A DNA stretch of 14,358 nucleotides, from IMG/VR virus record IMGVR_UViG_3300030125_000009; one strand, given 5' to 3'. The translations under genes were made by a program, and so were the position numbers. This DNA is from a virus (lineage: Duplodnaviria; Heunggongvirae; Uroviricota; Caudoviricetes). How positions within the stretch are numbered: position 1 is the stretch's first letter; every line of letters begins with the position of its first letter. The notes beneath the pieces were generated by a model that saw nothing but the letters and a program-made list of their open reading frames with translations, was not told the DNA's origin and searched no databases. Of this stretch, positions 1 to 14,358 are shown in pieces.

Positions 1-646
<646 letters not shown>

Positions 647-688: not shown

Positions 689-1333
689 TTAAAAGATGTT
701 ATCCTTACCTGTTAATTTACCTTGAGGAACTTTAGTGAGCTCCATCCGATAAAATGCTTTTATCATATTTACAAATGGCTCATATGGTGAATATTCGTTG
801 TCTTGTTTAGTAACGGTGTCTGTCATTGTCCTGATGTAGTCTGCGCTTACCACGTTGTTGTATTCTGTTGCGAAGCAGCATAACAACGTCAGAACATGCT
901 CTGTCGTTATTTCGATCCAGTTGATGTTGAAAAACTCATCGCCTTTTTTATCGTGTTCGGAATCGAAGATGCTTTGGTGGAGGATGTATTTGCCGGATTC
1001 CTTGCGCGGTAACTTGATCGCTTTCTGGCGTTCCAGTTCCTTGTAAATCTGCATTGCTTCAATTAGTACCGGCCTGCCGTTCATGAAGGGATCGCGCAAC
1101 CTTACACGCTGGCCAACTCGACCGGTAATAAAGCTGTTTTCCTCTTCCACCAGCACGATAAAACCCTTTTCCTCTTTTTCTCGCAATTCGCGCAGCAGCT
1201 GGAGTTCCATATCGCGGCGGCGTTCAGGGTAGCTGGTCCGCTCAGCCATTATCAGCTCGTTGTTGATCCATGCAGCAGTCATTGACGCCGGTTTACCGAC
1301 GCTCATCGAAACAACGCATATTTTCTTATCCAT
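689..1333 (-). CDS. Hypothetical protein, 214 aa (position corresponds to P1 mat, not verified)
   Basis: Open frame with ATG at 1333-1331 preceded by GGGGG Shine-Dalgarno (tatagggggcgctATG). The track's longer 263-aa version starts at GTG 1480 with no ribosome-binding site. No motif I recognise. Confidence 0.55.
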   Translation of the reverse strand: MDKKICVVSMSVGKPASMTAAWINNELIMAERTSYPERRRDMELQLLRELREKEEKGFIVLVEEENSFITGRVGQRVRLRDPFMNGRPVLIEAMQIYKELERQKAIKLPRKESGKYILHQSIFDSEHDKKGDEFFNINWIEITTEHVLTLLCCFATEYNNVVSADYIRTMTDTVTKQDNEYSPYEPFVNMIKAFYRMELTKVPQGKLTGKDNIF

Positions 1334-1522: not shown

Positions 1523-2083
1523 TTAGTGCATGATGTTTGCCATCTCATAGGCGTCAGCCAGCAATTCCATCTCTGACTTGTTCAGCAAGGTGAATTCTTT
1601 CTTGCCTCCAACCACACCATCGGCATGAACGGGGACCAGCCAGGGGTATTTTTCTCTTACTTCAGCCGGTGCTGCATGCTAGTGGTGCCATCTACAAAGG
1701 GGCAATTGCTTTTTGTGACAACCCGGCGCGGTACGACCGGAGATATGGTGCAGAGACACCTCTTCAGATATTACTCCATGCATGTAGCAGGCAATGCAGG
1801 GGAGAGCGCCAAGAGCATTGGCGATGCTCCGTTCCTCCGCTGTCGGTGTTCGCCCCTTCAAGCCACGAGATTTTATCTTTACCGCACTTTTCCGCGTTTT
1901 GCTGGCTGGTGGGCGCTCTTTCTGTTTAGCGATACGACGGTCGATAGAATCCCGCATTTTCTGATATTGCGATTCTCGCCAGGCGGGGTCAGCCAACTTT
2001 TCCCGTTGCCGAGCGATCGCTCGTTCTCTGGCTGCCTTCTGCCACTCGCGGCGCTGTTCAAGTTTTTGTTCGATTGTTTTCAT
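1523..2083 (-). pseudogene. ref: ref (P1 recombination enhancement function, HNH-type nuclease) interrupted by in-frame TAG amber codon at 1681-1679; truncated product 134 aa, full frame 186 codons
   Basis: Translation from ATG 2083 gives MKTIEQKLEQRREWQKAARERAIARQ...CHKKQLPLCRWHH, then TAG, then the same frame continues HAAPAEVREKYPWLVPVHADGVVGGKKEFTLLNKSEMELLADAYEMANIMH to TAA at 1525-1523. The 186-codon total matches the P1 Ref length I recall. Confidence 0.75.
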
Positions 2084-2692: not shown

Positions 2693-3724
2693 CTAATTGC
2701 CATCTTCCAGCAGGCGCACCATTGCCCCTGTTTCACTATCCAGGTTACGGATATAGTTCATGACAATATTTACGTTGGTCCAGCCACCAGCTTGCATGAT
2801 CTCCGGTATTGAAACTCCGGCACGGGCCATATCTCGCGCGGCTCCGACACGGGCACTGTGTCCAGACCAGGCCAGGTACCTCTGTCCAGAGTCATCCTTA
2901 GCCCCGTAAATCAATCGGTGAGTTGCTTCAAAAATCCCTTCTAGGGCGCGAGTTGATAGCTGGCTGGTGGGTGATGGCGAGGCAACACCATTTTTTCTGA
3001 CCCGGCAAAACAGGTAGTTATTCGGATCATCAGCCACACCAGAGACAGAAATCCATCGTTCGACCAGTTTAGTTACCCCCAGGCTAAGTGCCTTCTCTAC
3101 ACCTGCGGTGCTAACCAGCGTTTTCGTTCTGCCAATATGGATTAACATTCTCCCACCGTCAGTACGTGAGATATCTTTAACCCTGATCCTGGCAATTTCG
3201 GCTATACGTAACAGGGTGTTATAAGCAATCCCCAGAAATGCCAGATTACGTATATCCTGGCAGCGATCGCTATTTTCCATGAGTGAACGAACCTGGTCGA
3301 AATCAGTGCGTTCGAACGCTAGTGCCTGTTTTGCACGTTCACCGGCATCAACGTTTTCTTTTCGGATCCGCCGCATAACCAGTGAAACAGCATTGCTATC
3401 ACTTGGTCGCTGCAGCCCGGACCGACGATGAAGCATGTTTAGCTGGCCCAAATGTTGCTGGATAGTTTTTACTGCCAGACCGCGCGCCTGAAGATATAGA
3501 AGATAATCGCGAACATCTTCAGGTTCTGCGGGAAACCATTTCCGGTTATTCAACTTGCACCATGCCGCCCACGACCGGCAAACGGACAGAAGCATTTTCC
3601 AGGTATGCTCAGAAAACGCCTGGCGATCCCTGAACATGTCCATCAGGTTCTTGCGAACCTCATCACTCGTTGCATCGACCGGCAATGCAGGCAAATTTTG
3701 GTGTACGGTCAGTAAATTGGACAT
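2693..3724 (-). CDS. cre: Cre site-specific tyrosine recombinase, 343 aa (variant)
   Basis: Translation MSNLLTVHQNLPALPVDATSDEVRKNLMDMFRDRQAFSEHTWKMLLSVCRSWAAWCKLNNRKWFPAEPEDVRDYLLYLQARGLAVKTIQQH... is Cre. It differs from the canonical Cre I remember at three positions (GVASPSPTSQ versus GVAAPSATSQ; C-terminal GN versus GD). Confidence 0.97.
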   Translation of the reverse strand: MSNLLTVHQNLPALPVDATSDEVRKNLMDMFRDRQAFSEHTWKMLLSVCRSWAAWCKLNNRKWFPAEPEDVRDYLLYLQARGLAVKTIQQHLGQLNMLHRRSGLQRPSDSNAVSLVMRRIRKENVDAGERAKQALAFERTDFDQVRSLMENSDRCQDIRNLAFLGIAYNTLLRIAEIARIRVKDISRTDGGRMLIHIGRTKTLVSTAGVEKALSLGVTKLVERWISVSGVADDPNNYLFCRVRKNGVASPSPTSQLSTRALEGIFEATHRLIYGAKDDSGQRYLAWSGHSARVGAARDMARAGVSIPEIMQAGGWTNVNIVMNYIRNLDSETGAMVRLLEDGN

Positions 3725-4557: not shown

Positions 4558-4767
4558 ATGGCTTTCATTCAACCAACCATCGACGACGTTAGACATTGCT
4601 CTAACGCTTTATCTGTAGACCCTGCCGAAACCGACGCTGCCCGCGCCATTGCTGAACACTACTCAAAGATATCCAATCAGGAGTACCGCATCACCCAAGA
4701 CGACCTGGATGACCTCACTGACACAATCGAATATCTCATGGCAACTAACCAGTTAGACTCACAATAA
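4558..4767 (+). CDS. coi: Coi, C1 inactivator, 69 aa
   Basis: Translation MAFIQPTIDDVRHCSNALSVDPAETDAARAIAEHYSKISNQEYRITQDDLDDLTDTIEYLMATNQLDSQ; size and position immediately upstream of c1 match P1 coi; Shine-Dalgarno GTGAGG upstream. Confidence 0.85.
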   Translation: MAFIQPTIDDVRHCSNALSVDPAETDAARAIAEHYSKISNQEYRITQDDLDDLTDTIEYLMATNQLDSQ

Positions 4768-4877: not shown

Positions 4878-5729
4878 ATGATAAATTATGTCTACGGCGA
4901 ACAACTGTACCAGGAGTTCGTCAGCTTCAGGGATCTCTTTCTAAAAAAAGCTGTTGCACGCGCCCAACACGTTGATACAGCCAGCGACGGTCGTCCTGTA
5001 CGCCCGGTTGTCGTTCTACCGTTCAAAGAAACTGACAGCATTCAGGCTGAAATTGATAAATGGACTTTAATGGCGCGGGAACTGGAACAGTACCCAGACC
5101 TCAATATCCCAAAGACTATTTTATATCCAGTGCCTAACATCCTTCGCGGTGTGCGCAAGGTTACAACTTATCAGACAGAAGCTGTGAACAGCGTCAACAT
5201 GACCGCTGGCCGCATTATTCATCTGATTGATAAGGACATTCGCATCCAAAAAAGCGCGGGGATCAATGAGCACAGTGCGAAATACATAGAGAACCTGGAA
5301 GCAACAAAAGAGCTAATGAGGCAGTACCCGGAGGATGAAAAATTCCGTATGCGCGTACACGGCTTTAGCGAAACAATGCTGCGCGTCCATTACATTTCCA
5401 GTAGCCCTAACTACAATGATGGTAAATCAGTTAGTTACCATGTGCCGCTGTGTGGTGTGTTTATCTGCGATGAAACTCTCCGTGATGGAATCATCATCAA
5501 CGGTGAATTCGAGAAAGCAAAATTTAGCCTTTATGACTCTATAGAACCGATCATCTGCGACCGCTGGCCGCAGGCAAAAATATATCGCCTGGCAGATATT
5601 GAAAATGTAAAAAAACAAATTGCCATCACTCGCGAAGAGAAAAAGGTCAAATCAGCCGCATCAGTTACGCGCAGCCGTAAAACCAAGAAGGGGCAGCCAG
5701 TAAACGACAACCCCGAAAGCGCGCAATAA
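4878..5729 (+). CDS. c1: C1 repressor of lysogeny, 283 aa
   Basis: Translation MINYVYGEQLYQEFVSFRDLFLKKAVARAQHVD... at 283 aa matches P1 C1 as I recall it; strong Shine-Dalgarno GGAGGAGG; many copies of its operator are present in the window. Confidence 0.93.
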   Translation: MINYVYGEQLYQEFVSFRDLFLKKAVARAQHVDTASDGRPVRPVVVLPFKETDSIQAEIDKWTLMARELEQYPDLNIPKTILYPVPNILRGVRKVTTYQTEAVNSVNMTAGRIIHLIDKDIRIQKSAGINEHSAKYIENLEATKELMRQYPEDEKFRMRVHGFSETMLRVHYISSSPNYNDGKSVSYHVPLCGVFICDETLRDGIIINGEFEKAKFSLYDSIEPIICDRWPQAKIYRLADIENVKKQIAITREEKKVKSAASVTRSRKTKKGQPVNDNPESAQ

Positions 5730-5734
5730 ATTAT

Positions 5735-5752
5735 GCCCGGCATCAACCGGGC
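5735..5752. terminator. GC-rich hairpin (gcccgg-catcaa-ccgggc) between convergent c1 and ant; possible bidirectional terminator
   Basis: A 6-bp GC stem seen directly, flanked by T/A-rich sequence on both sides; sits in the 32-bp gap between the two stop codons. Confidence 0.45.
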
Positions 5753-5761
5753 ATTCTTCCA

Positions 5762-6628
5762 TTATTCAGCCGCCACCGGTTTTAACAAGCCAGCATCGAG
5801 CAGTTTACGCGTCAACCACTGCTGGCCTTTACCCGTTAATTGAGGCGTCAACCGTATCTGGTAGCCATCTTCATCATCCAGCACCACTTCTTTCACCGTG
5901 AAATACCCCGCGTTGATGTACTGCTGGAACGGCACATTTTTACGTCCACCGGACGCTATCAGGATGCCGTTCTCCCGTAACCAGACAAACAGCGCGTTTT
6001 GCTTAAGTCCAACAACCTTTGCAAAATTCCCAATCAGGATCCCTTTAGCTACTGATACCCGGTCGGCAAAATCGACTTTAGGAGCGGCGGCCACCAGCTG
6101 CTGATTTAGCTGGTGGGCTTTCTGTTCCAGAAGCTGCTTTTGTTCAGCCAGTTCGGCAGCCAGGCGCAGAGCTTCTGGAAGCGTCTGGGGGATTGCAACC
6201 GGTTGCTGTTCTTTTTGCCGGAAGTAGCTGTCTTCCAGTTTTTCAAAGAATGCCCATGCCTGATCGGTTTCGAGCATTTTAGCGTGGCGGGCTGCGCCGC
6301 GTTCCGTCCAGAGGATGAGTGAGCGGGCTTTAGGAGAGATAGGATTTTGTGAGTTACTTAAAGTCACCCGCAAATTGTTCAAATCATCTCCAATAACTTT
6401 ATAGAAATGCTTGCCTTCACAAAAACGTTCAGCATTACGGGAAAAGTTCTTCTTGATGTTATCCGCATCTGTCCCATACCCCTTAGCAAGGATCTTAGTT
6501 GTCACTACACGCACTCCCTGCCACTCTAGAACGGGAATTTCATCCGGCTGACTTTGAACAACCACCAGTTCTGATTCCTGAACTAAAGGTGTATTAATTT
6601 TTTCAGATTTAACGTTAGTAGCTTTCAT
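5762..6628 (-). CDS. ant2: Ant2, 288 aa, in-frame internal initiation product of the ant ORF
   Basis: Internal ATG at 6628 (MKATNVKSEK...) has its own strong Shine-Dalgarno AAGGAGG 8 nt upstream, in the same frame as ant1; this mirrors the P1 ant1/ant2 arrangement. Confidence 0.6.
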   Translation of the reverse strand: MKATNVKSEKINTPLVQESELVVVQSQPDEIPVLEWQGVRVVTTKILAKGYGTDADNIKKNFSRNAERFCEGKHFYKVIGDDLNNLRVTLSNSQNPISPKARSLILWTERGAARHAKMLETDQAWAFFEKLEDSYFRQKEQQPVAIPQTLPEALRLAAELAEQKQLLEQKAHQLNQQLVAAAPKVDFADRVSVAKGILIGNFAKVVGLKQNALFVWLRENGILIASGGRKNVPFQQYINAGYFTVKEVVLDDEDGYQIRLTPQLTGKGQQWLTRKLLDAGLLKPVAAE

Positions 6629-6877
6629 TCTGTGTGCCTCCTTGCGTGTTTCGGCTGCGACGGTTGCGTAATTCAGATGCCCCTGTTCGAGCAGGTATTC
6701 ACGGATATCAGACAGCAGGATACGGTGAACAGCGTTCTTGTCCTTTCTCCGGTAAAGTTGTTTGGTGATCATGAAGTAGTTGGCAATAACGCCAGGTATA
6801 TCCCTGGTACTGATACAGGCAGAGTGCTGTTCAATTGCCTCGATCATCTCTTCACGGGTAACTAACGATGTTCTCAT
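5762..6877 (-). CDS. ant1: Antirepressor Ant1, 371 aa (ORF6N/KilA-N-like N-terminal region plus Ant C-terminal domain); a second in-frame start gives Ant2
   Basis: ATG at 6877 preceded by AGGAGGG; the icd stop overlaps it (ATGA). Antirepressor-family domain assignment is from memory of the family, not from a search. Confidence 0.8.
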   Translation of the reverse strand: MRTSLVTREEMIEAIEQHSACISTRDIPGVIANYFMITKQLYRRKDKNAVHRILLSDIREYLLEQGHLNYATVAAETRKEAHRMKATNVKSEKINTPLVQESELVVVQSQPDEIPVLEWQGVRVVTTKILAKGYGTDADNIKKNFSRNAERFCEGKHFYKVIGDDLNNLRVTLSNSQNPISPKARSLILWTERGAARHAKMLETDQAWAFFEKLEDSYFRQKEQQPVAIPQTLPEALRLAAELAEQKQLLEQKAHQLNQQLVAAAPKVDFADRVSVAKGILIGNFAKVVGLKQNALFVWLRENGILIASGGRKNVPFQQYINAGYFTVKEVVLDDEDGYQIRLTPQLTGKGQQWLTRKLLDAGLLKPVAAE

Positions 6878-7095
6878 AGTCCCTCCTGAGCAGAAGCGTT
6901 AACAGGGAGGCACCAGTAACTGAGAGAATTGCGTGAATCAGTGGAAAAACGGGCAGAGAAAATACATGGGGCGTCAGGAAGCTGAGAGCGGGCCTCATCT
7001 TCTGTCGGTGCAATAACGAAGTGATAGTGACGTTTTTGGCAGGAGTAAAAGCGCCAGATAAATTCAGGATGAGTTGGGGTAGGGATAGTAGCCAT
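6874..7095 (-). CDS. icd: Icd-like protein (interference with cell division), 73 aa, translationally coupled to ant1
   Basis: ATG at 7095 preceded by AAGGAGG; product MATIPTPTHPEFIWRFYSCQKRHYHFVIAPTEDEARSQLPDAPCIFSARFSTDSRNSLSYWCLPVNASAQEGL; TGA stop overlaps the ant1 ATG; 73 codons equals the P1 icd length as I recall. Confidence 0.7.
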   Translation of the reverse strand: MATIPTPTHPEFIWRFYSCQKRHYHFVIAPTEDEARSQLPDAPCIFSARFSTDSRNSLSYWCLPVNASAQEGL

Positions 7096-7151
7096 ATTGG
7101 CAGCCTCCTTAGACGTTGGTATGTAACCACCGCAGAAGAGACCAATCTTGC

Positions 7152-7231
7152 TGGCGGTGGACTGTACGGAGTTGGCCTTACTGGCGTCCAAGGTAACCAG
7201 CCTACCCGAAGGTAGCCCCATACAGCCCACC
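7152..7231 (-). ncRNA. c4: Candidate c4-like antisense repressor RNA (about 80 nt, tRNA-like terminal stem, 3' GCCA)
   Basis: On the minus strand, GGUGGGCUGUAU pairs with GUACAGUCCACC as a 12-bp terminal stem, followed by GCCA; internal 5-bp hairpin with UUCG loop; the segment CCUUGGACG is complementary (9 bp, one G-U) to CGUCUAAGG, which overlaps the icd ribosome-binding site. Boundaries are approximate. Confidence 0.45.
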
Positions 7232-7260
7232 ATTGTAGAGGTGTGCGTGTACGCCGATAC

Positions 7261-7283
7261 AAAAAAAAGACGCGAGCGGCGTC
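7261..7283 (-). terminator. Rho-independent terminator downstream of pacB (hairpin GACGC-CGCUC-GCGUC plus U8)
   Basis: Hairpin followed by an 8-U run on the minus strand, about 150 nt after the pacB stop. Confidence 0.6.
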
Positions 7284-7414
7284 TGTATCGCCTTAGACTT
7301 AAGCGGGAGGCCAATCCCGGCACCCGTTTTAATGAGGTGCCTGATAAGCATAAACCGAAAATGCCTCAAGGCGCAAGAGGTCAGGTTCAATGTAACATCG
7401 GCAGTTAAAAAACA

Positions 7415-7431
7415 CAATTTATTAGAGCAAA
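7415..7431 (-). promoter_or_regulatory. C1 operator (Op51-like, 15/17 match) directly after the pacB stop and upstream of the c4-icd-ant module
   Basis: Minus strand TTTGCTCTAATAAATTG. Confidence 0.65.
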
Positions 7432-7434
7432 TAT

Positions 7435-8919
7435 TCATTCATTAAGCCATGCCAGAGCTTCATCAACCTGCGCTTCGTCTTCGACGCTAAGCACTTCATC
7501 TTGGGGAACATAATCCGCCAGCATAGCGAAACAATATGTATCCCAATGGTCTGGTGAGTGCAGGTTGAGTTTTTTCTTCATATCCTCCTTACTCATCACC
7601 TTCCATTGACCTGCGGAGTTAATCCCTACAGGGATTTTCGACGCTTCCTCAATAGTTTCATTACCCTTATCCAGTCTCATACGACCAGATTTTACGGCCT
7701 CTGCGGCTTGAACGTTGGCATAAGCACGTTTATCAAAGTACAGGCTCTTATCTTCACGGCTATGCATCTTTTTACCCCAGCGTATACGCTGTACGGTAAT
7801 ACCATAATACTCGTACATCAGATCCGCCGTTGCTTTACCCAGGCCATCGCCGTCTATCGCTATGGTAATATTTGGGAATCGCTCAGGATTACATTCTGCG
7901 AAAATTTTGGCGGCAAGCTGCGTTTCTGTAACGTCTGTGTATTCCAGCATTCGATAGTTGATTACACGGCGTTTATTTCTCTGGCCGGACACCATCATGA
8001 TATTGATAACGGACTTATCCCTTCCCGTACCACCAGCAACGTCCACACATGCAAGCCAGCCCCATCCTTTGGCAATCTTGACTTTCCGCCGCGTTGCACG
8101 TTCAACCTCATCACGTCCAAGAAGGAAGCCATCCTGTGATTTAGGGAATAGGCCGCGTACCTTAATCATGTACATAGGGTTATCGCGCCCGCCGTACTCC
8201 GCCAGCTTCATTTTGATAAATGCTGGCGTTACCAGCGGTGATTCCTCACTGTTAAGCGTGATCGCCGTATAAACGCCATCAGGGTTACCAGGACGCTTGG
8301 CCAGTTTATGGTGAGTATCGTAGAAATAGCCGCTTGGGCGTGTAGGCTGTGACAGTAATAAGATGCGGTTATCCTGTCCGGTAAGAGCACCGGTGATGAT
8401 ACCGAAAGCTCTATCACTGACACCGGAGGCTTCATCGATAATATACAGAAGATGATCTGCGTGTTCACCGGCGAGAGCTTCTTCACTTCCCAGACGAAAG
8501 CCCTTCGGTACTACAGTCCATACACCTTTACCAGTAACCTCATAGAAAGCGGTTTCTGTCAGAACAAAATAATCAGCAAGCCACGGAAAACGGCTGGTGG
8601 CCGTAGCCCAGTTTATCTTGATGTACTTGAATATACCGGTCATTACCTGCTGAATTTTGTTCGCAACGATAATGGCGCGGGCACCGGGATACATGATTAT
8701 GAACAACATGATCATGATAGAAGTCATGTCTGATTTCCCGGTACCGTGACCAGACGAAACAGATGTCTTGCTACCCTGTTCCTGCACAGACTCAATAATC
8801 AGATCCTGCTGCCAGGTAGGTGTTTTGCCGAACAAAACATCAGCGGCAGCAATCCAGTCATAACGATATAGCGCCACCAGCTCGCGCCAACGTGGATCCG
8901 TTACGCAACTTCTGGCCAT
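7435..8919 (-). CDS. pacB: PacB, pacase (terminase) large subunit, 494 aa
   Basis: Translation [22 protein letters not shown]...; size and position (after pacA, start overlapping the pacA stop as TAATG) match P1 pacB. Confidence 0.9.
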
Positions 8920-10112
8920 TAATCATCATCCCCGTATAGCTTGCGGGTAACTTCTTCGTCTTCCTCCTCGTCTTCGTCCAGGTCTTGTTCCAGCCATGGG
9001 TCGTTTGATACACCTTCAGTATCAACATCTCCATAACCGCCTGTATCAACGATATCGGCGATTTCTTCCCTACGCTGCTCAATCCACAATGCGGCATCGG
9101 CGCGGCGGTTGGCGGCCCGTTCTCGCGCAACTTTGTCCAGATCTTCAAGAGAAGGGCCACCGACGGCTGTTTGCCTTTCCTCATCATCGGTATTGGTCTT
9201 AGGAGCACGCAGATCGGCTTTGATTTGCTCCAGCATCAGGGGCGGCACTTTTCCGCCATGCGCCTCGATGAATTCAGCTGCTTCCAGCACTGACCAGTTA
9301 TTTTCACGCTTTCGTTCGTATGCCAGCTTAACAATGCCAGCTTGCCCCATAGACAAAGCGTGCTTTTCCGCCTCCCGGCTTTCTTTTCGATAGTTATTCC
9401 GGATGCTGTAAATGGTGTTGATCAGGCTGCTTATCTGCGCGGAACAGCTGTTTAGCATGCTCGCGATACGGTATTCAGGCGGAGTACCTTCATCATCGTC
9501 TTTTTGCTGATCGCGCATTTCCTGCACCAGGCGAATACACGTATCCCTGGCGTTCTCCAGCATAAGGAGATGAGAAAGAGACTTTTCCAGAAGAGTGGTT
9601 TCCAGAACATCGGCCCCGGACCGACGCAACATAGCGCGCGCGGCCTTCCGCGCTTCAACGTTATCTATCAGGTAATCGCCAGCTTCGAATTCAAAGCGTT
9701 CACCATCATCATCCAGGGTGTCGCGTTCCAGGCGATCACGTAAGGTCCGGTGGGCGCGGGTGATCACGTCATGATCATCTGAACGATCATTTATGCGCTT
9801 ATTTTGGCGCTTCGCATTATCGACTGCGGCACTGACAACGGCATTAACTCTTTGTTTTTCATCCATTTCAGCCACAACGTGATCACCTGCACGTTGATCA
9901 TTAGCGTGATCAATGATCATGCTTTTTAGTGGTTTCCTGACAGGCTTATTTGGCTTACGGCTGTCCGCTGTTCCGGTGTCTTCTTTGAATGCACGGAGAT
10001 AACGACGTGCGGTGTTTGGGTTGAGATTAAACTCGGCGGCATATTGTGCGATGGTGTAACCACCATCTCGCGCCAGGCGAGCAAAATTCTTCTTGTGATC
10101 GTCCCAGGTCAC
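8919..10112 (-). CDS. pacA: PacA, pacase small subunit, 397 aa, with the pac site inside its coding sequence; GTG start
   Basis: Translation (V/M)[41 protein letters not shown]... with acidic C-terminal tail; GTG start preceded by AAGGAAG and an in-frame TAA just upstream. Confidence 0.9.
9734..9919. other. pac: pac packaging site: two clusters of TGATCA/GATC hexamers (Dam sites) within pacA
   Basis: TGATCA at 9761, 9772, 9880, 9895, 9907 and 9914, plus CGATCA at 9733 and 9785, flanking a spacer of about 90 bp; matches the known P1 pac architecture. Confidence 0.8.
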
Positions 10113-10198
10113 TTATGCTTCCTTTCGTATAAAACTCTTTTTGACGCGAGGGTAACGAAAGTCACATGTCAAAAGGCCCGGAACGGGCAAGCAATCAA

Positions 10199-10651
10199 TC
10201 AGATACGTGCGGATGTGGCATTACCGTAATGACGGTGCTGACGGACCACCTTATTGAAAAATTGACGCGCCATTACCCAAGGCTGGTGCTCCCGGCGTTC
10301 CTTTTCGTCCTGCGTCATATAGAGTTCGTTCTGGAGTTTTTCATCAAACCGGCGCGGAGCGCGACTGCGGCGAAAGAATTCAGGATTCAGAGAGTGGATC
10401 TGAAATCTACGTGGGCGTGTACTGTCATCAATCAAAACAGACGAATACTTAGACACAGCGATAGCCTTTAAGCGCAGATAAACATCGCGCTTATCGACAT
10501 CCAGATGCGGGTATTCCTTTTCAAGAATTGCTGCGAGTTCTTTCGCTGATAGAAGAGATTTAGTGCGGATCATGTAATCCGCAATCTCGTACGATGTTAT
10601 TCGTGAGTGATTTATTTCCATGAAGTGGCGTCCCTGCCAGTTAAGTAACAT
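10199..10651 (-). CDS. lpa: Lpa (late promoter activator, gp10)-like protein, 150 aa
   Basis: Position immediately upstream of pacA; a C1 operator lies in its promoter region; Shine-Dalgarno AGGTGACAGG before the ATG. Identity is by synteny and size, not sequence recall. Confidence 0.7.
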   Translation of the reverse strand: MLLNWQGRHFMEINHSRITSYEIADYMIRTKSLLSAKELAAILEKEYPHLDVDKRDVYLRLKAIAVSKYSSVLIDDSTRPRRFQIHSLNPEFFRRSRAPRRFDEKLQNELYMTQDEKERREHQPWVMARQFFNKVVRQHRHYGNATSARI

Positions 10652-10721
10652 CCTGTCACCTACTGATTAGCCCATGTCAACTAATCAACGTCGAATATAA
10701 TACCCTCGATTAAAGAAATAG

Positions 10722-10738
10722 CAATACATTAGAGCAAT
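10722..10738 (-). promoter_or_regulatory. C1 operator (14/17 match) upstream of lpa
   Basis: Minus strand ATTGCTCTAATGTATTG, immediately after the pdcB stop. Confidence 0.6.
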
Positions 10739-10739
10739 T

Positions 10740-11783
10740 TTATCTAACACTCGACGAATGACTTGTGATAGCGCCAACTCCAAGCGCGTAATCAAAGAAC
10801 AATCGTTGATGCATCGCCAGCCTACCGTGCGTCTTCTCCCAATTATCGCGGTCACGCTCAATATCACGCTGGCATGACTGGCACAGAGGAATAGCATAAA
10901 TGTCATGCGCGCATAATCGACTATGACGAACTATATAAGGCGTAATGTGAGCGCCAGCTCCCGCAGCTCCACAGCCACAGCATGGACGGGAAGCCACAAA
11001 GTCCATGTACTCGGGCAATTTTAGCGATTGAAGTTTTGGTATTTTGAAATGCGCCATACCTGGGTCGGAGTCAACATCCACAGGGCATACTTTTGCACGC
11101 ATCGGCGCGGCGCGTTCTTCCATCATCTGAACATATGCTGTAGCGCGATCGTCATACGGGCGAATATCCGCCTCTTTCAGAGGTCCGCTATCCTGCGGAA
11201 TAGCCTTCATCTTATTTATTGATATGCGGCAGACTTCTTCCGGCATCAGGTGCATCATGTTGCGCATGAAAGCCCACCAGCACAGCTCCTGAATACTTAA
11301 ATCATGGCTATTTGAAAGGCCCATTTCCTGACGGGCGACATCCAGTATCCAGTTAACGCGATTATTGTGCAGCGTTTCTTTCAGCTCATTAAAACCACGC
11401 ATCCGATAATGGTGATCGTGATGCCAGCACAACAACACCGCGCTATTGTCTCGTTCAGCGTGGACAATATGGTTGTCACACCAACTACGATCTGCGGCCT
11501 GGCATTGCCCCTCTTTCCTGCGCAACCACGCCACCAGCGCGTCAATTCCACCAATACGGCGAAACAGTTCATCGCTGTTAAAAAACGGCTGCAACGCCTC
11601 ATTTGTTGCCATGGTTTGCTCGGTAACAACGAGGCCGTCTTCCATGTGCTCGATTAACTCACGCGGCACCGGCTCCATAATAAATTTACGGCCAGCCTCC
11701 ACCAGCTTTCTGACCTCCTGATCCACTTTGAACGTGGCGAGGCCAAGCTCTTTCTGTACAAAGGGAGTAATTACGGCTTTCAC
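10740..11783 (-). CDS. pdcB: PdcB-like protein (post-doc gene), 347 aa, Cys/His-rich; GTG start
   Basis: Long open frame between pdcA and lpa; GTG start preceded by AAAGGTG; motifs CWHHDHH and CCGCG...PLCQSCQ. Name assigned by synteny with P1. Confidence 0.6.
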
Positions 11784-11810
11784 ATCACACCTTTAATCAC
11801 TGATTGGGCT

Positions 11811-11990
11811 TTATCTGCTGCCCGGCATTCTCTGTTTAAGCACAACCATTTCCTGACGGCATAACACAGCAATAGCAGTCCTGGCTCCAATTTGCTTACC
11901 AACCAGGTATTGCTTTACCTCGCGGCGACTCACGCCATCAAGAAGCATCTTTAACGCTTCACGGGACAATTTGTTGTATTTGCGTGCCAT
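11811..11990 (-). CDS. pdcA: PdcA-like small protein, 59 aa (ATG at 11990, 4 nt after the doc stop)
   Basis: MARKYNKLSREALKMLLDGVSRREVKQYLVGKQIGARTAIAVLCRQEMVVLKQRMPGSR; GGAG Shine-Dalgarno 9 nt upstream. The track's 66-aa version starts further upstream, inside doc. Confidence 0.5.
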   Translation of the reverse strand: MARKYNKLSREALKMLLDGVSRREVKQYLVGKQIGARTAIAVLCRQEMVVLKQRMPGSR

Positions 11991-11994
11991 TAAT

Positions 11995-12375
11995 CTACTC
12001 CGCAGAACCATACAATCTACGTAACGTGTCGGCGACAGAAGATACAGATATCTCGCCAGTCGCAGCGCCTACAGTAAGGTCTGCCAGTTCAGGTGAATCA
12101 AATACCTGCACCCCGTTACGGCGTAGAAATAGCAGCGCGCTGTTTAGCGCGGTACGCTTATTGGCATCATTGAATATATGCCCTCTCGCTGTAGCCACCA
12201 GGTAGGTGGCGGAGACTTCGAAAAGGTCGGTGATCTCTTCGTAGGCAACTCTGGCCTGAACTCTCCCGATAATGGCCTCTGCCCTACCCGGATCTGACAT
12301 TCCCGGCAGGCCGCCGTAGCGGCTTATATTCGCATCATGAAGCGCAATAAGTTCTTCCGGTGATATATGCCTCAT
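11995..12375 (-). CDS. doc: Doc toxin (Fic-fold kinase), 126 aa
   Basis: Translation [92 protein letters not shown]... is P1 Doc; start overlaps the phd stop (TAATG). Confidence 0.95.
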
Positions 12376-12596
12376 TATCGGTTAACCAGTTCCTTGTTGG
12401 TGGAGTCCAGGGTGTCAAACAGGGATGCAAATTCAGCATCCAGCGCCGCTTTTTTGTAGGCTTCGAAAGTAGCCTTGCTGACAATTACTGCTGGCTCACG
12501 ACCTCTGCGGGTGATTTCAACCTCTTCCCCGGCTTCAACATTGTTGAGCACTTCAGAAAGGTTGCCGCGCGCGGTACGGAAGTTAATGGATTGCAT
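12375..12596 (-). CDS. phd: Phd antitoxin, 73 aa
   Basis: Translation [73 protein letters not shown]; true start is ATG 12596 with GAGGTG Shine-Dalgarno (the track begins 2 codons upstream at GTG). Confidence 0.95.
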
Positions 12597-12605
12597 AAAC
12601 ACCTC

Positions 12606-12633
12606 GTGTACTCGTTATGTGTACACAATTATA
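12606..12633 (-). promoter_or_regulatory. phd-doc promoter/operator: palindromes GTGTACTC (12606-12613) and TGTGTACACA (12618-12627), with TATAAT -10 at 12633-12628
   Basis: Perfect 10-bp palindrome and an adjacent imperfect copy between a consensus -10 and the phd ATG; consistent with autoregulation by Phd/Doc. Confidence 0.6.
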
Positions 12634-12772
12634 AACTTCACAGGCATAAAGCACCAGCACTTTGCGGCTTAACAAACCTCTAGGCAGGTCATTCGTAGCC
12701 TAATGTCCGAACTGCTAAAGCATCCAAGTTGCTGTAGAATCACCGCCAATTACATAAGCCTGAAATAAGTGG

Positions 12773-14260
12773 ATGAAAATGACAAGTATTCAACAACGTG
12801 CAGAGCTTCATCGTCAAATCTGGCAAATTGCTAACGATGTCAGGGGTTCGGTCGATGGATGGGATTTTAAGCAATACGTTCTGGGCGCACTTTTCTACCG
12901 TTTTATCAGCGAAAATTTTTCCAGTTATATTGAAGCCGGTGATGACAGTATCTGTTATGCGAAACTGGATGACAGCGTAATTACTGATGACATTAAAGAC
13001 GATGCCATCAAAACTAAAGGCTACTTCATCTACCCCAGTCAGCTTTTCTGCAACGTAGCTGCGAAAGCAAATACCAATGACAGACTGAACGCAGATTTAA
13101 ACAGCATCTTCGTTGCTATCGAAAGTTCTGCTTACGGCTACCCTTCAGAAGCAGACATCAAAGGTTTGTTTGCTGATTTCGATACCACCAGTAACCGCCT
13201 GGGTAACACCGTTAAAGATAAAAATGCCCGCCTGGCTGCGGTTCTGAAAGGGGTTGAAGGGTTAAAACTTGGTGACTTCAACGAACATCAGATTGACCTG
13301 TTCGGTGATGCCTATGAGTTCCTGATTTCTAACTATGCGGCAAATGCCGGTAAGTCAGGCGGTGAGTTCTTTACACCGCAGCACGTCTCCAAGCTGATTG
13401 CACAACTGGCTATGCACGGGCAGACCAACGTTAACAAAATCTACGACCCGGCAGCGGGTTCCGGCTCACTGTTGTTGCAGGCTAAAAAGCAGTTTGATAA
13501 CCATATCATCGAAGAAGGCTTTTTTGGTCAGGAAATCAACCATACAACCTATAACCTGGCACGTATGAACATGTTTTTGCACAACATCAACTACGACAAG
13601 TTTGATATCAAGCTGGGTAATACACTGACTGAGCCACACTTCAGAGATGAAAAACCGTTTGATGCCATCGTTTCTAACCCGCCGTATTCGGTGAAATGGA
13701 TTGGCAGCGATGACCCGACGCTGATTAACGATGAACGTTTTGCCCCGGCTGGCGTCCTGGCCCCCAAATCCAAAGCTGACTTTGCGTTTGTACTACATGC
13801 GCTGAACTATCTTTCGGCCAAAGGTCGTGCTGCGATTGTCTGCTTCCCGGGTATTTTTTACCGTGGCGGCGCGGAGCAGAAAATCCGTCAGTATCTGGTC
13901 GATAATAACTATGTCGAAACCGTGATTTCACTGGCACCGAACCTGTTCTTTGGCACCACTATTGCTGTAAACATTCTGGTGCTGTCTAAACATAAAACGG
14001 ATACCAAAGTTCAGTTTATTGATGCCAGCGAACTGTTCAAAAAAGAAACCAACAACAATATCCTGACCGATGCCCATATCGAACAGATTATGCAGGTATT
14101 TGCCAGCAAGGAAGATGTTGCTCATCTGGCGAAATCTGTTGCGTTTGAGACTGTTGTCGCGAATGACTATAACCTGTCGGTGAGCAGCTATGTGGAAGCG
14201 AAAGATAACCGCGAAATTATCGATATCGGTGAGCTGAATGCAGAGCTGAAAACCAGGTGA
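12773..14260 (+). CDS. hsdM: Type I restriction-modification N6-adenine DNA methyltransferase subunit HsdM, 495 aa, 3' end truncated by IS1
   Basis: N-terminus [25 protein letters not shown]..., AdoMet-binding motif [10 protein letters not shown] and catalytic NPPY motif (VSNPPYS). The stop codon TGA at 14258-14260 lies inside the IS1 terminal inverted repeat. Confidence 0.88.
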
Positions 14261-14358
14261 TGCTGCCAACTTACTGATTTAGTGTATGATGGTGTTTTTG
14301 AGGTGCTCCAGTGGCTTCTGTTTCTATCAGCTGTCCCTCCTGTTCAGCTACTGACGGG
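14256..14358 (+). mobile_element. IS1, left end (IRL) and start of insA, partial (runs off the right window edge)
   Basis: ggtgatgctgccaacttactgatttagtgtatgatggtgtttttgaggtgctccagtggcttctgtttctatcagctgtccctcctgttcagctactgacggg matches the IS1 terminus and insA 5' region as I remember them. Confidence 0.9.
14311..14358 (+). CDS. insA: IS1 InsA, N-terminal fragment (GTG start)
   Basis: GTG GCT TCT GTT TCT ATC AGC TGT CCC TCC TGT TCA GCT ACT GAC GGG translates to (M)ASVSISCPSCSATDG, the InsA N-terminus. Confidence 0.8.
   Translation, partial: MASVSISCPSCSATDG

What the first reader, a model, noticed from the sequence alone, without database searches (positions are those of the whole stretch)
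12603..14358. Orphan Type I methyltransferase gene next to phd-doc, truncated at its 3' end by IS1
A full-looking hsdM (AdoMet and NPPY motifs) is transcribed divergently from phd-doc, but its last codons and stop are supplied by the IS1 inverted repeat (TGA at 14258-14260). No hsdS or hsdR is visible in the window. As I recall, humD/hdf occupies this position in P1, so this looks like a variable defence slot that later suffered an IS1 insertion. IS1 may have deleted or displaced hsdS and hsdR.
Basis: partly seen in the sequence, partly recalled or inferred. Interest (0 to 1): 0.5.

Follow-up and report, generated by a model that had tools for sequence, protein, structure and literature searches.

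The report
IS1-truncated EcoR124-type hsdM in P1-like plasmid
This is the methylase gene of a well-known plasmid/phage-borne Type IC restriction system, sitting where such systems are already known to sit in P1-like phage-plasmids, and an IS1 insertion sequence has cut off its last 26 codons; it is an ordinary, almost certainly dead, gene remnant.

Summary
ORF 12773-14260 (+) encodes 495 aa. Residues 1-494 differ at 3 positions from EcoR124II HsdM (520 aa, PDB 7bst). IS1's left inverted repeat starts at 14256, so IS1 supplies two bases of codon 495 and the TGA at 14258-14260.

Twenty-six native C-terminal residues are lost. Almost all of the 120 best homologues are 516-521 aa, and no listed homologue ends at this residue. 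The lost residues lie in the conserved C-terminal helix. In Type I enzymes this helix packs against the HsdS coiled coil, and removing it abolishes M2S assembly. The product should therefore neither methylate nor support restriction.

The window is a P1-like phage-plasmid segment (mat, ref, cre, coi, c1, pacB, pacA, lpa, pdcB, pdcA, doc, phd). Intact relatives carry phd-doc | hsdM-hsdS-hsdR | pap-pmgS, where P1 has pmgT...humD. P1's own annotation and Tyndall et al. 1997 already record that Type IC hsd loci are flanked by this P1 DNA.

IS1-truncated alleles of this gene are common, with at least four other junctions seen.

The window starts inside an IS5-family element and ends inside IS1, which is typical of a short-read contig. 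Whether hsdS and hsdR survive beyond IS1 cannot be told.

Low interest; already known.

The parts
11995..12375 (-). doc (toxin of the P1 addiction module), 126 aa
   Evidence: ORF list. Collinear with annotated doc in phi456, 673R5, IncY plasmids and P1.
12375..12596 (-). phd (antitoxin), 73 aa from the ATG at 12596
   Evidence: Sequence. Annotated phd in relatives.
12597..12672 (.). P1-homologous intergenic DNA. It corresponds to the P1 stretch that carries the annotated Pphd. P1 backbone homology ends at 12672, which matches the last bases of humD in P1.
   Evidence: BLAST to P1 and P7 stops at query position 70 (76 in some records), i.e. window 12672. Window 7437-12672 aligns to P1 locus 13205-7971. 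P1 annotation places Pphd at 87986-88014 and the end of humD at 87973.
12673..12772 (+). hsd-cassette-specific leader upstream of hsdM, presumed to hold the hsdM-hsdS promoter. No consensus sigma-70 match was found.
   Evidence: Not homologous to P1 but contiguous with hsd-bearing relatives. The promoter scan found nothing.
12773..14255 (+). Native part of Type IC hsdM: codons 1-494 plus the first base of codon 495. Includes the HsdM_N domain, N6_Mtase domain, AdoMet motif and NPPY motif, and only about 10 residues of the C-terminal helix.
   Evidence: Three differences over 494 aligned residues against EcoR124II HsdM, 7bst_D. Pfam. Alignment with full-length homologues. Helix 483-517 in the model of the 518-aa homologue.
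14256..14358 (+). Left end of IS1: IRL about 14256-14278, and insA start (GTG) at 14309 by my reading of the sequence. It runs off the window. It supplies GG of codon 495 (AGG, Arg) and the stop TGA at 14258-14260.
   Evidence: 99-100% identity to IS1 of P1 and of IncF plasmids over 103 nt. Junction sequence.

Best explanation
The region is the hsdM gene of an EcoR124/EcoDXXI-type (Type IC) restriction-modification cassette. The cassette sits in the known variable slot of a P1-like phage-plasmid, between phd-doc and pap, where P1 has pmgT...humD.

An IS1 element has inserted after the first base of codon 495, or has produced a deletion or rearrangement that ends there. The result is a 495-aa protein that keeps the N-terminal and catalytic domains. 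It lacks 26 residues of the conserved C-terminal helix.

In Type I enzymes that helix, together with the HsdS coiled coil, forms the four-helix bundle that holds the M2S core together. M2S is needed for both methylation and HsdR-dependent restriction. The allele is therefore most likely null (r- m-). It is tolerated because a Type I nuclease cannot act without M2S.

Shown here: the identity of the gene, the junction, the size of the loss, and the context. Inferred: loss of assembly and activity, and recency of the event, since there are no other lesions. Unknown: whether hsdS and hsdR still lie beyond IS1.
For: - Three differences over residues 1-494 against EcoR124II HsdM, which is 520 aa.
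- Pfam finds HsdM_N and N6_Mtase.
- IS1 IRL starts at 14256.
- Intact relatives continue ...ELKT-TVSKIDQLRKDIDAIVA(E/K)IEG... to 518/520 aa.
- Almost all of the 120 best homologues are 516-521 aa.
- The lost tail contains invariant V494, I497, L500, I504, I507 and I511, a heptad-like stripe. It lies in the predicted helix 483-517, the best-scored part of an otherwise poor model.
- Literature: the HsdM C-terminal region contacts the HsdS coiled coil, and removing about 43 C-terminal residues of EcoKI HsdM stops assembly (PMC2647291). The M tails and S coiled coil form a four-helix bundle, and deleting the tails abolishes the PacII M1M2S complex (PMC9613975). Both M and S are required for methylation (abstracts).
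- Context: phd-doc | hsdM-hsdS-hsdR | pap-pmgS in phi456, 673R5 and two IncY plasmids. 218 plasmid records cover at least 80% of the whole window.
- The P1 annotation notes homology of P1 84263-84482 and 87969-88647 to the flanks of the EcoDXXI and R124/3 hsd loci.
- The three amino-acid differences from EcoR124II HsdM all occur in full-length homologues.
Against: - No experiment on this allele exists. About 10 residues of the C-terminal helix remain, so residual HsdS binding is not excluded.
- The structure model is of low overall confidence (pLDDT 38.7).
- The EcoR124I cryo-EM paper itself could not be read. The role of the tail is transferred from EcoKI and PacII.
- No consensus promoter was found upstream of hsdM, so expression is assumed, not shown.
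- Nothing beyond IS1 can be seen.
Confidence: 0.85

Rival explanations
1. Simple IS1 insertion. Beyond the 768-bp IS1 lie a 9-bp target duplication (TGAAAACCA), the last 26 codons of hsdM, and intact hsdS and hsdR. The gene would then be interrupted, not orphaned, and precise IS1 loss or recombination could restore the system. This rivals only the 'orphan/deleted' part of the reading, not the gene's identity.
For: - A one-step insertion is the simplest event, and hsdM has no other lesion.
- A real example exists: E. coli S56 chromosome has hsdM 5' part - IS1 - hsdM 3' part - hsdS - hsdR.
Against: - In the complete plasmids where IS1's IRL abuts the 3' end of this hsdM (L003-L005), hsdS and hsdR are gone. 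There is no target duplication, and the IS1 right flank is identical in all three, which indicates nested IS1 adjacent deletions.
- No record with the reciprocal junction at this position was found.
Confidence: 0.45
2. IS1-mediated adjacent deletion or IS1-IS1 recombination removed or displaced hsdS and hsdR, leaving a true orphan hsdM stump.
For: - Recurrent in relatives: at least four other IS1 junctions occur in the last ~75 bp of hsdM, and many more lie in hsdS.
- Three IncF plasmids share one IS1 right flank.
- pEC8-3 has IS1-hsdS-hsdR-IS1 without hsdM.
- P1-type genomes often carry a resident IS1.
Against: No sequence beyond 14358 is available. Both contigs with this allele stop inside IS1.
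Confidence: 0.5
3. The truncated protein is a working solitary adenine methyltransferase, or works with an HsdS supplied in trans by a resident Type IC system.
For: The catalytic domain and both motifs are intact. Type IC systems also occur on E. coli chromosomes.
Against: - Type I HsdM needs HsdS for DNA recognition (abstracts).
- The HsdS-binding tail is mostly deleted, and comparable deletions abolish assembly.
Confidence: 0.04
4. The junction is an assembly artefact: a mis-join of an intact hsdM to a repeat at a contig end.
For: The window begins in an IS5-family element and ends in IS1, as short-read contigs do.
Against: - A second contig (Logan, SRR5665058) is 100% identical over 8230 nt, including the same junction.
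- The join falls exactly at the first base of the IS1 terminal repeat, as real transposition does.
- Analogous junctions exist in finished plasmids.
Confidence: 0.02

Closest known systems
EcoR124I/II HsdM (Type IC R-M of IncF plasmid R124; PDB 7bst, 7bto-7btr)
   Same: Three amino-acid differences over residues 1-494, with the same domains and motifs.
   Different: Lacks residues 495-520, and no hsdS or hsdR is visible. It sits in a P1-like phage-plasmid rather than in R124.
Type IC hsd loci flanked by P1 DNA (EcoDXXI, EcoR124/3; Tyndall et al. 1997, Mol Microbiol 23:729; notes in the P1 RefSeq record)
   Same: The left boundary of the cassette is identical. P1 homology ends at the end of humD and start of Pphd (P1 87969/87970 = window 12672).
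   Different: Here the cassette lies in a bona fide P1-like backbone and is cut by IS1. The right flank (pap side) is not in the window.
Intact hsdM-hsdS-hsdR cassette of P1-like phages and IncY phage-plasmids (phi456, vB_EcoM-673R5, pRHB30-C19_3, E. marmotae plasmid)
   Same: Same slot, same orientation, and 96.6-98.4% DNA identity in hsdM.
   Different: Those carry a 518/520-aa HsdM followed by HsdS and a 1038-aa HsdR.
IS1-truncated hsdM stumps next to pdcA-doc-phd in IncFIA/FIB/FII plasmids (for example pHK02-1 of an ST131 strain) and protein cluster P0004 (476 aa, 1019 member sequences)
   Same: Same gene, with IS1 in the same orientation (IRL) at the 3' end.
   Different: The junction positions differ: +4, -8 and -19 nt, and about -75 nt for P0004. 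Those sit on IncF backbones, where loss of hsdS and hsdR is demonstrated.
P1 humD / variable region 8 (pmgT-humD) of P1-like phage-plasmids (PMC9603915)
   Same: Same genomic slot next to phd-doc.
   Different: The content is a restriction cassette instead of pmgT...hot-lxr-humD.

Membership tests
Type I R-M modification subunit (HsdM) | HsdM_N domain plus N6_Mtase catalytic domain with AdoMet motif I and NPPY motif IV | tested here: met
   Pfam PF12161 8e-17 and PF02384 5e-121. DPAAGSGS and NPPY are present in the translation.
Type I R-M modification subunit (HsdM) | Complete C-terminal helical tail that binds the HsdS coiled coil | tested here: not met
   Twenty-six residues are missing compared with the 518/520-aa homologues. 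About 25 of the 35 residues of predicted helix 483-517 are lost.
Type I R-M modification subunit (HsdM) | Adjacent hsdS (and hsdR) forming one system | tested here: inconclusive
   None within the window. The window ends 103 nt into IS1. The two known contigs with this allele both stop there.
Type IC family (EcoR124, EcoDXXI, EcoprrI) | Close sequence relationship to EcoR124 subunits | tested here: met
   Three differences over 494 aa against EcoR124II HsdM. By contrast, the match to EcoKI HsdM (Type IA) has E = 4e-17.
Type IC family (EcoR124, EcoDXXI, EcoprrI) | Subunit complementation within the family, and a bipartite recognition site | not testable with these tools
   Needs genetics or a methylome.
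IS1 | Terminal inverted repeat GGTGATGCTGCC... followed by the insA start | tested here: met
   103 nt at 99-100% identity to IS1 of P1 and of IncF plasmids. The insA start at 14309 is my reading of the sequence.
IS1 | Complete 768-bp element with 8-9 bp target duplication | not testable with these tools
   The window ends inside the element.
P1-like phage-plasmid (Punavirus) | Collinear P1 backbone genes around the locus | tested here: met
   mat, ref, cre, coi, c1, pacB, pacA, lpa, pdcB, pdcA, doc and phd are present. Identity is 93-98% to P1, P7, phi456, 673R5 and IncY plasmids.
Solitary (orphan) DNA methyltransferase such as Dam or CcrM | Sequence-specific methylation without a separate specificity subunit | not testable with these tools
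   By family knowledge, Type I HsdM needs HsdS (abstracts).

The most novel reading that the evidence does not exclude
The repeated truncation of this hsdM within its last ~75 bp may not be neutral decay. This would include the window's allele, three IncF junctions and the very common 476-aa allele. A tail-less HsdM might keep its HsdR-contacting surfaces while being unable to join HsdS. It could then titrate HsdR of resident Type IC enzymes and act as a restriction-alleviating decoy that helps the phage-plasmid or IncF plasmid establish itself. Alternatively, the 3' end of hsdM may be a genuine IS1 target or deletion-endpoint hotspot.
Probability: 0.04. Interest if true: 0.45.

Novelty: already known. 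Interest (0 to 1): 0.1.

Why it matters
It matters little beyond annotation. Automatic pipelines name such stumps 'type I restriction-modification system subunit M'. That label would wrongly suggest an active defence or methylation function.

The locus is a clean example of two known facts. P1-like phage-plasmids use the phd-doc/pap slot to carry Type IC restriction cassettes, and IS1 repeatedly erodes those cassettes. For the host, it predicts an r- m- phenotype for this system.

Tried and rejected
- Exact-junction scans, 41-nt and degenerate 35-nt, found nothing in genome contigs, viral contigs or metagenome contigs.
- BLAST of the junction against plasmids and complete E. coli genomes found no identical junction.
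- Looking up the 495-aa product found nothing. The 493-aa product (start at 12779) found only two short contigs, and the one shown (L009) also stops inside IS1. The DNA beyond the right edge is therefore unreachable.
- Two searches used synthetic reciprocal junctions (IS1 right end + TGAAAACCA + hsdM tail). They found no counterpart at this position. Several apparent hits (H206-H210) were non-collinear joins of the same IS1 and were discarded.
- The sigma-70 and terminator scan of 12500-12900 found nothing.
- The AlphaFold model of a full-length homologue was poor overall (pLDDT 38.7, shallow alignment). I used it only for the C-terminal helix and ran no fold search on it.
- Obarska et al. 2006 (M.EcoR124I model) is not held in the library. 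I did not search for the EcoR124I cryo-EM paper by id; one search did not list it.
- Rejected the idea that the antisense ORF 13928-14269 is a gene. It is only a mechanical ORF overlapping hsdM and IS1, with no supporting evidence.

Full report
**1. Observation**

The + strand ORF 12773-14260 encodes 495 aa. Pfam finds HsdM_N (residues 12-159, E = 8e-17) and N6_Mtase (residues 173-481, E = 5e-121). The AdoMet motif DPAAGSGS and the catalytic NPPY (nt 13676-13687) are present.

A search of PDB sequences shows that residues 1-494 differ at only 3 positions from the EcoR124II M protein (7bst_D, 520 aa). This is therefore a Type IC HsdM, not just 'a Type I methyltransferase'.

The IS1 left terminal repeat GGTGATGCTGCCAACTTACTG starts at 14256. 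The 103 nt to the window end are 99-100% identical to IS1 of P1 and of IncF plasmids. The reading frame runs ...AAA ACC A|GG TGA. IS1 contributes two bases of codon 495 (Arg) and the stop at 14258-14260.

phd (12375-12596) and doc (11995-12375) lie on the minus strand, divergent from hsdM. No hsdS or hsdR is present in the window.

**2. How much is missing**

Intact relatives continue after ...ELKT with TVSKIDQLRKDIDAIVA(E/K)IEG(C/D)E(V/A)Q(K/S), reaching 518 aa from the second ATG or 520 aa from the first. Almost all of the 120 best database homologues are 516-521 aa. No listed homologue ends at this residue.

The truncation is real and removes 26 residues.

The three substitutions relative to EcoR124II HsdM (N219, K411, G485) all occur in full-length homologues. 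There is no other damage, which suggests a recent event.

**3. What the lost piece does**

Across 28 homologues of 87-98% identity, the lost tail contains invariant V494, I497, L500, I504, I507 and I511. This is a 3-3-4-3-4 hydrophobic stripe.

An AlphaFold model of a full-length homologue is poor overall (pLDDT 38.7). It places one long helix at residues 483-517, which is its best-scored part (pLDDT 70-89). The truncation keeps about 10 of those 35 residues.

The literature supports a role in assembly:
[quoted passage not shown] Proteolytic removal of about 43 C-terminal residues leaves a folded HsdM that can no longer bind M1S1 (PMC2647291).
- In PacII, the C-terminal tails of the M subunits and the S coiled coil form a four-helix bundle. 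Deleting the tails abolishes the complex (PMC9613975).
- Methylation needs both M and S, and restriction needs HsdR bound to the M-S complex (abstracts).

By inference, the 495-aa product cannot assemble, so the system is r- m-. Such a lesion is tolerated because the nuclease is inert without M2S.

**4. Context**

The window is a P1-like phage-plasmid segment:

| Feature | Coordinates | Strand | Note |
|---|---|---|---|
| mat | 698-1333 | - | |
| ref | 1526-2083 | - | in-frame stop |
| cre | 2693-3724 | - | |
| coi | 4558-4767 | + | |
| c1 | 4878-5729 | + | |
| antirepressor | 5762-6877 | - | |
| Ash-family ORF | 6874-7323 | - | |
| pacB | 7435-8919 | - | |
| pacA | 8919-10112 | - | |
| lpa | 10199-10651 | - | |
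| pdcB | 10740-11783 | - | |
| pdcA | 11811-12011 | - | |
| doc, phd | 11995-12596 | - | |

These assignments rest.

In phage phi456, phage vB_EcoM-673R5 and two IncY plasmids, the order is phd-doc | hsdM - hsdS - hsdR (1038 aa) | pap - pmgS. P1 itself has pap - pmgT ... hot - lxr - humD - phd.

P1 homology in the window stops at 12672. This corresponds to P1 87970, four bases inside the end of humD.

The P1 RefSeq record already notes that P1 87969-88647 is 98% identical to DNA upstream of the EcoDXXI hsd locus. It also notes that P1 84263-84482 matches DNA downstream of the EcoDXXI and R124/3 hsd loci. This is the finding of Tyndall et al. [quoted passage not shown]

The pmgT-humD block is one of eight published variable regions of P1-like phage-plasmids (PMC9603915). 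218 plasmid records cover at least 80% of the whole window, which includes hsdM. The 'variable defence slot' idea is correct, but it is already known.

**5. IS1 erosion is recurrent**

IncFIA/FIB/FII plasmids carry a P1-derived pdcA-doc-phd-hsdM fragment. In three of them, IS1 abuts hsdM at +4, -8 and -19 nt relative to the window's junction. The IS1 right flank is identical in all three (TGTGTTACTAACCG...) and there is no target duplication. That is the signature of nested IS1 adjacent deletions.

Protein cluster P0004 (476 aa, 1019 member sequences) ends ...NLSVSW-VMLPTY*. The last residues are IS1's repeat read in another frame.

Many further records have IS1 at varied distances inside hsdS. 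Other outcomes also exist:
- The E. coli S56 chromosome has a simple IS1 insertion that splits hsdM, with hsdS and hsdR intact.
- Plasmid pEC8-3 has IS1-hsdS-hsdR-IS1 without hsdM.

**6. What cannot be decided**

The window starts inside an IS5-family element (1-646) and ends inside IS1. The only other contig found with exactly this product is a Logan assembly of SRR5665058. It is 100% identical over 8230 nt and stops 22 nt after the stop codon, also inside IS1.

Exact-junction scans of three collections and BLAST of two more found no longer record. Whether this is a simple insertion or a deletion/rearrangement is therefore open, and I rate the two about equally. 'Orphan' is unproven.

**7. 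Verdict**

The object is an IS1-inactivated copy of a thoroughly characterised gene in a published genomic arrangement.

Novelty: already known; only the precise junction is new to the databases searched. Interest: low.

The only reading with some novelty is that tail-less HsdM stumps are selected, for example as HsdR decoys, or that the hsdM 3' end is an IS1 hotspot. Nothing here supports either beyond the recurrence of junctions, and the searches were biased toward near-full-length hsdM.

Noticed in passing
window 1-646: The window begins inside an IS5-family element, about 92% identical to ISKpn26/IS5 copies in related plasmids. Its terminal repeat ends at 646 and its transposase lies on the minus strand. 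With IS1 at the other end, the window looks like a short-read contig broken at repeats on both sides.
   Followed up: partly
window 1526-2083 (-), stop at 1679-1681: The P1 ref gene (RecA-dependent nuclease) has an in-frame stop at codon 135 of 186 (...CRWHH*HAAP...; Gln in pRHB30-C19_3). It is probably a pseudogene.
   Followed up: partly
window 5730-7436: P1 homology is absent between c1 and pacB. Instead there is a 371-aa antirepressor (ORF6N + KilAC/ANT, 5762-6877, -) and an Ash-family ORF (6874-7323, -). Both are shared with vB_EcoM-673R5 and IncY plasmids. This is a second variable slot.
   Followed up: partly
L003, L004, L005 (IncF plasmids NZ_CP063775.1, NZ_CP124388.1, NZ_CP072859.1): IncFIA/FIB(/FII) plasmids (pHK02-1 is from an ST131 strain) carry a P1-derived pdcA-doc-phd-hsdM fragment. 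IS1 truncates hsdM at three different positions, but the IS1 right flank is the same (next to an S-4TM effector gene) and there is no target duplication. This indicates nested IS1 adjacent deletions.
   Followed up: yes
protein cluster P0004 (476 aa, 1019 member sequences): This very common HsdM allele ends in VMLPTY*, which is the IS1 terminal repeat translated in frame 2. It is another IS1 truncation, about 75 bp upstream of the window's junction. Databases name it as a normal subunit M.
   Followed up: partly
L010 (pEC8-3, NZ_CP060955.1) and L011 (E. coli S56 chromosome): These show the reciprocal outcomes of IS1 activity at Type IC loci. pEC8-3 has IS1B-hsdS-hsdR-IS1A lacking hsdM. The S56 chromosome, near tRNA-Leu, has a simple IS1 insertion that splits hsdM, with hsdS and hsdR intact.
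   Followed up: partly
window 698-1333 (-): mat is only about 85% identical at protein level to Mat of pRHB30-C19_3. DNA homology to most relatives begins only at window 824, so the 3' part of mat and the DNA up to the IS5 end (647-823) are divergent or unique.
   Followed up: no
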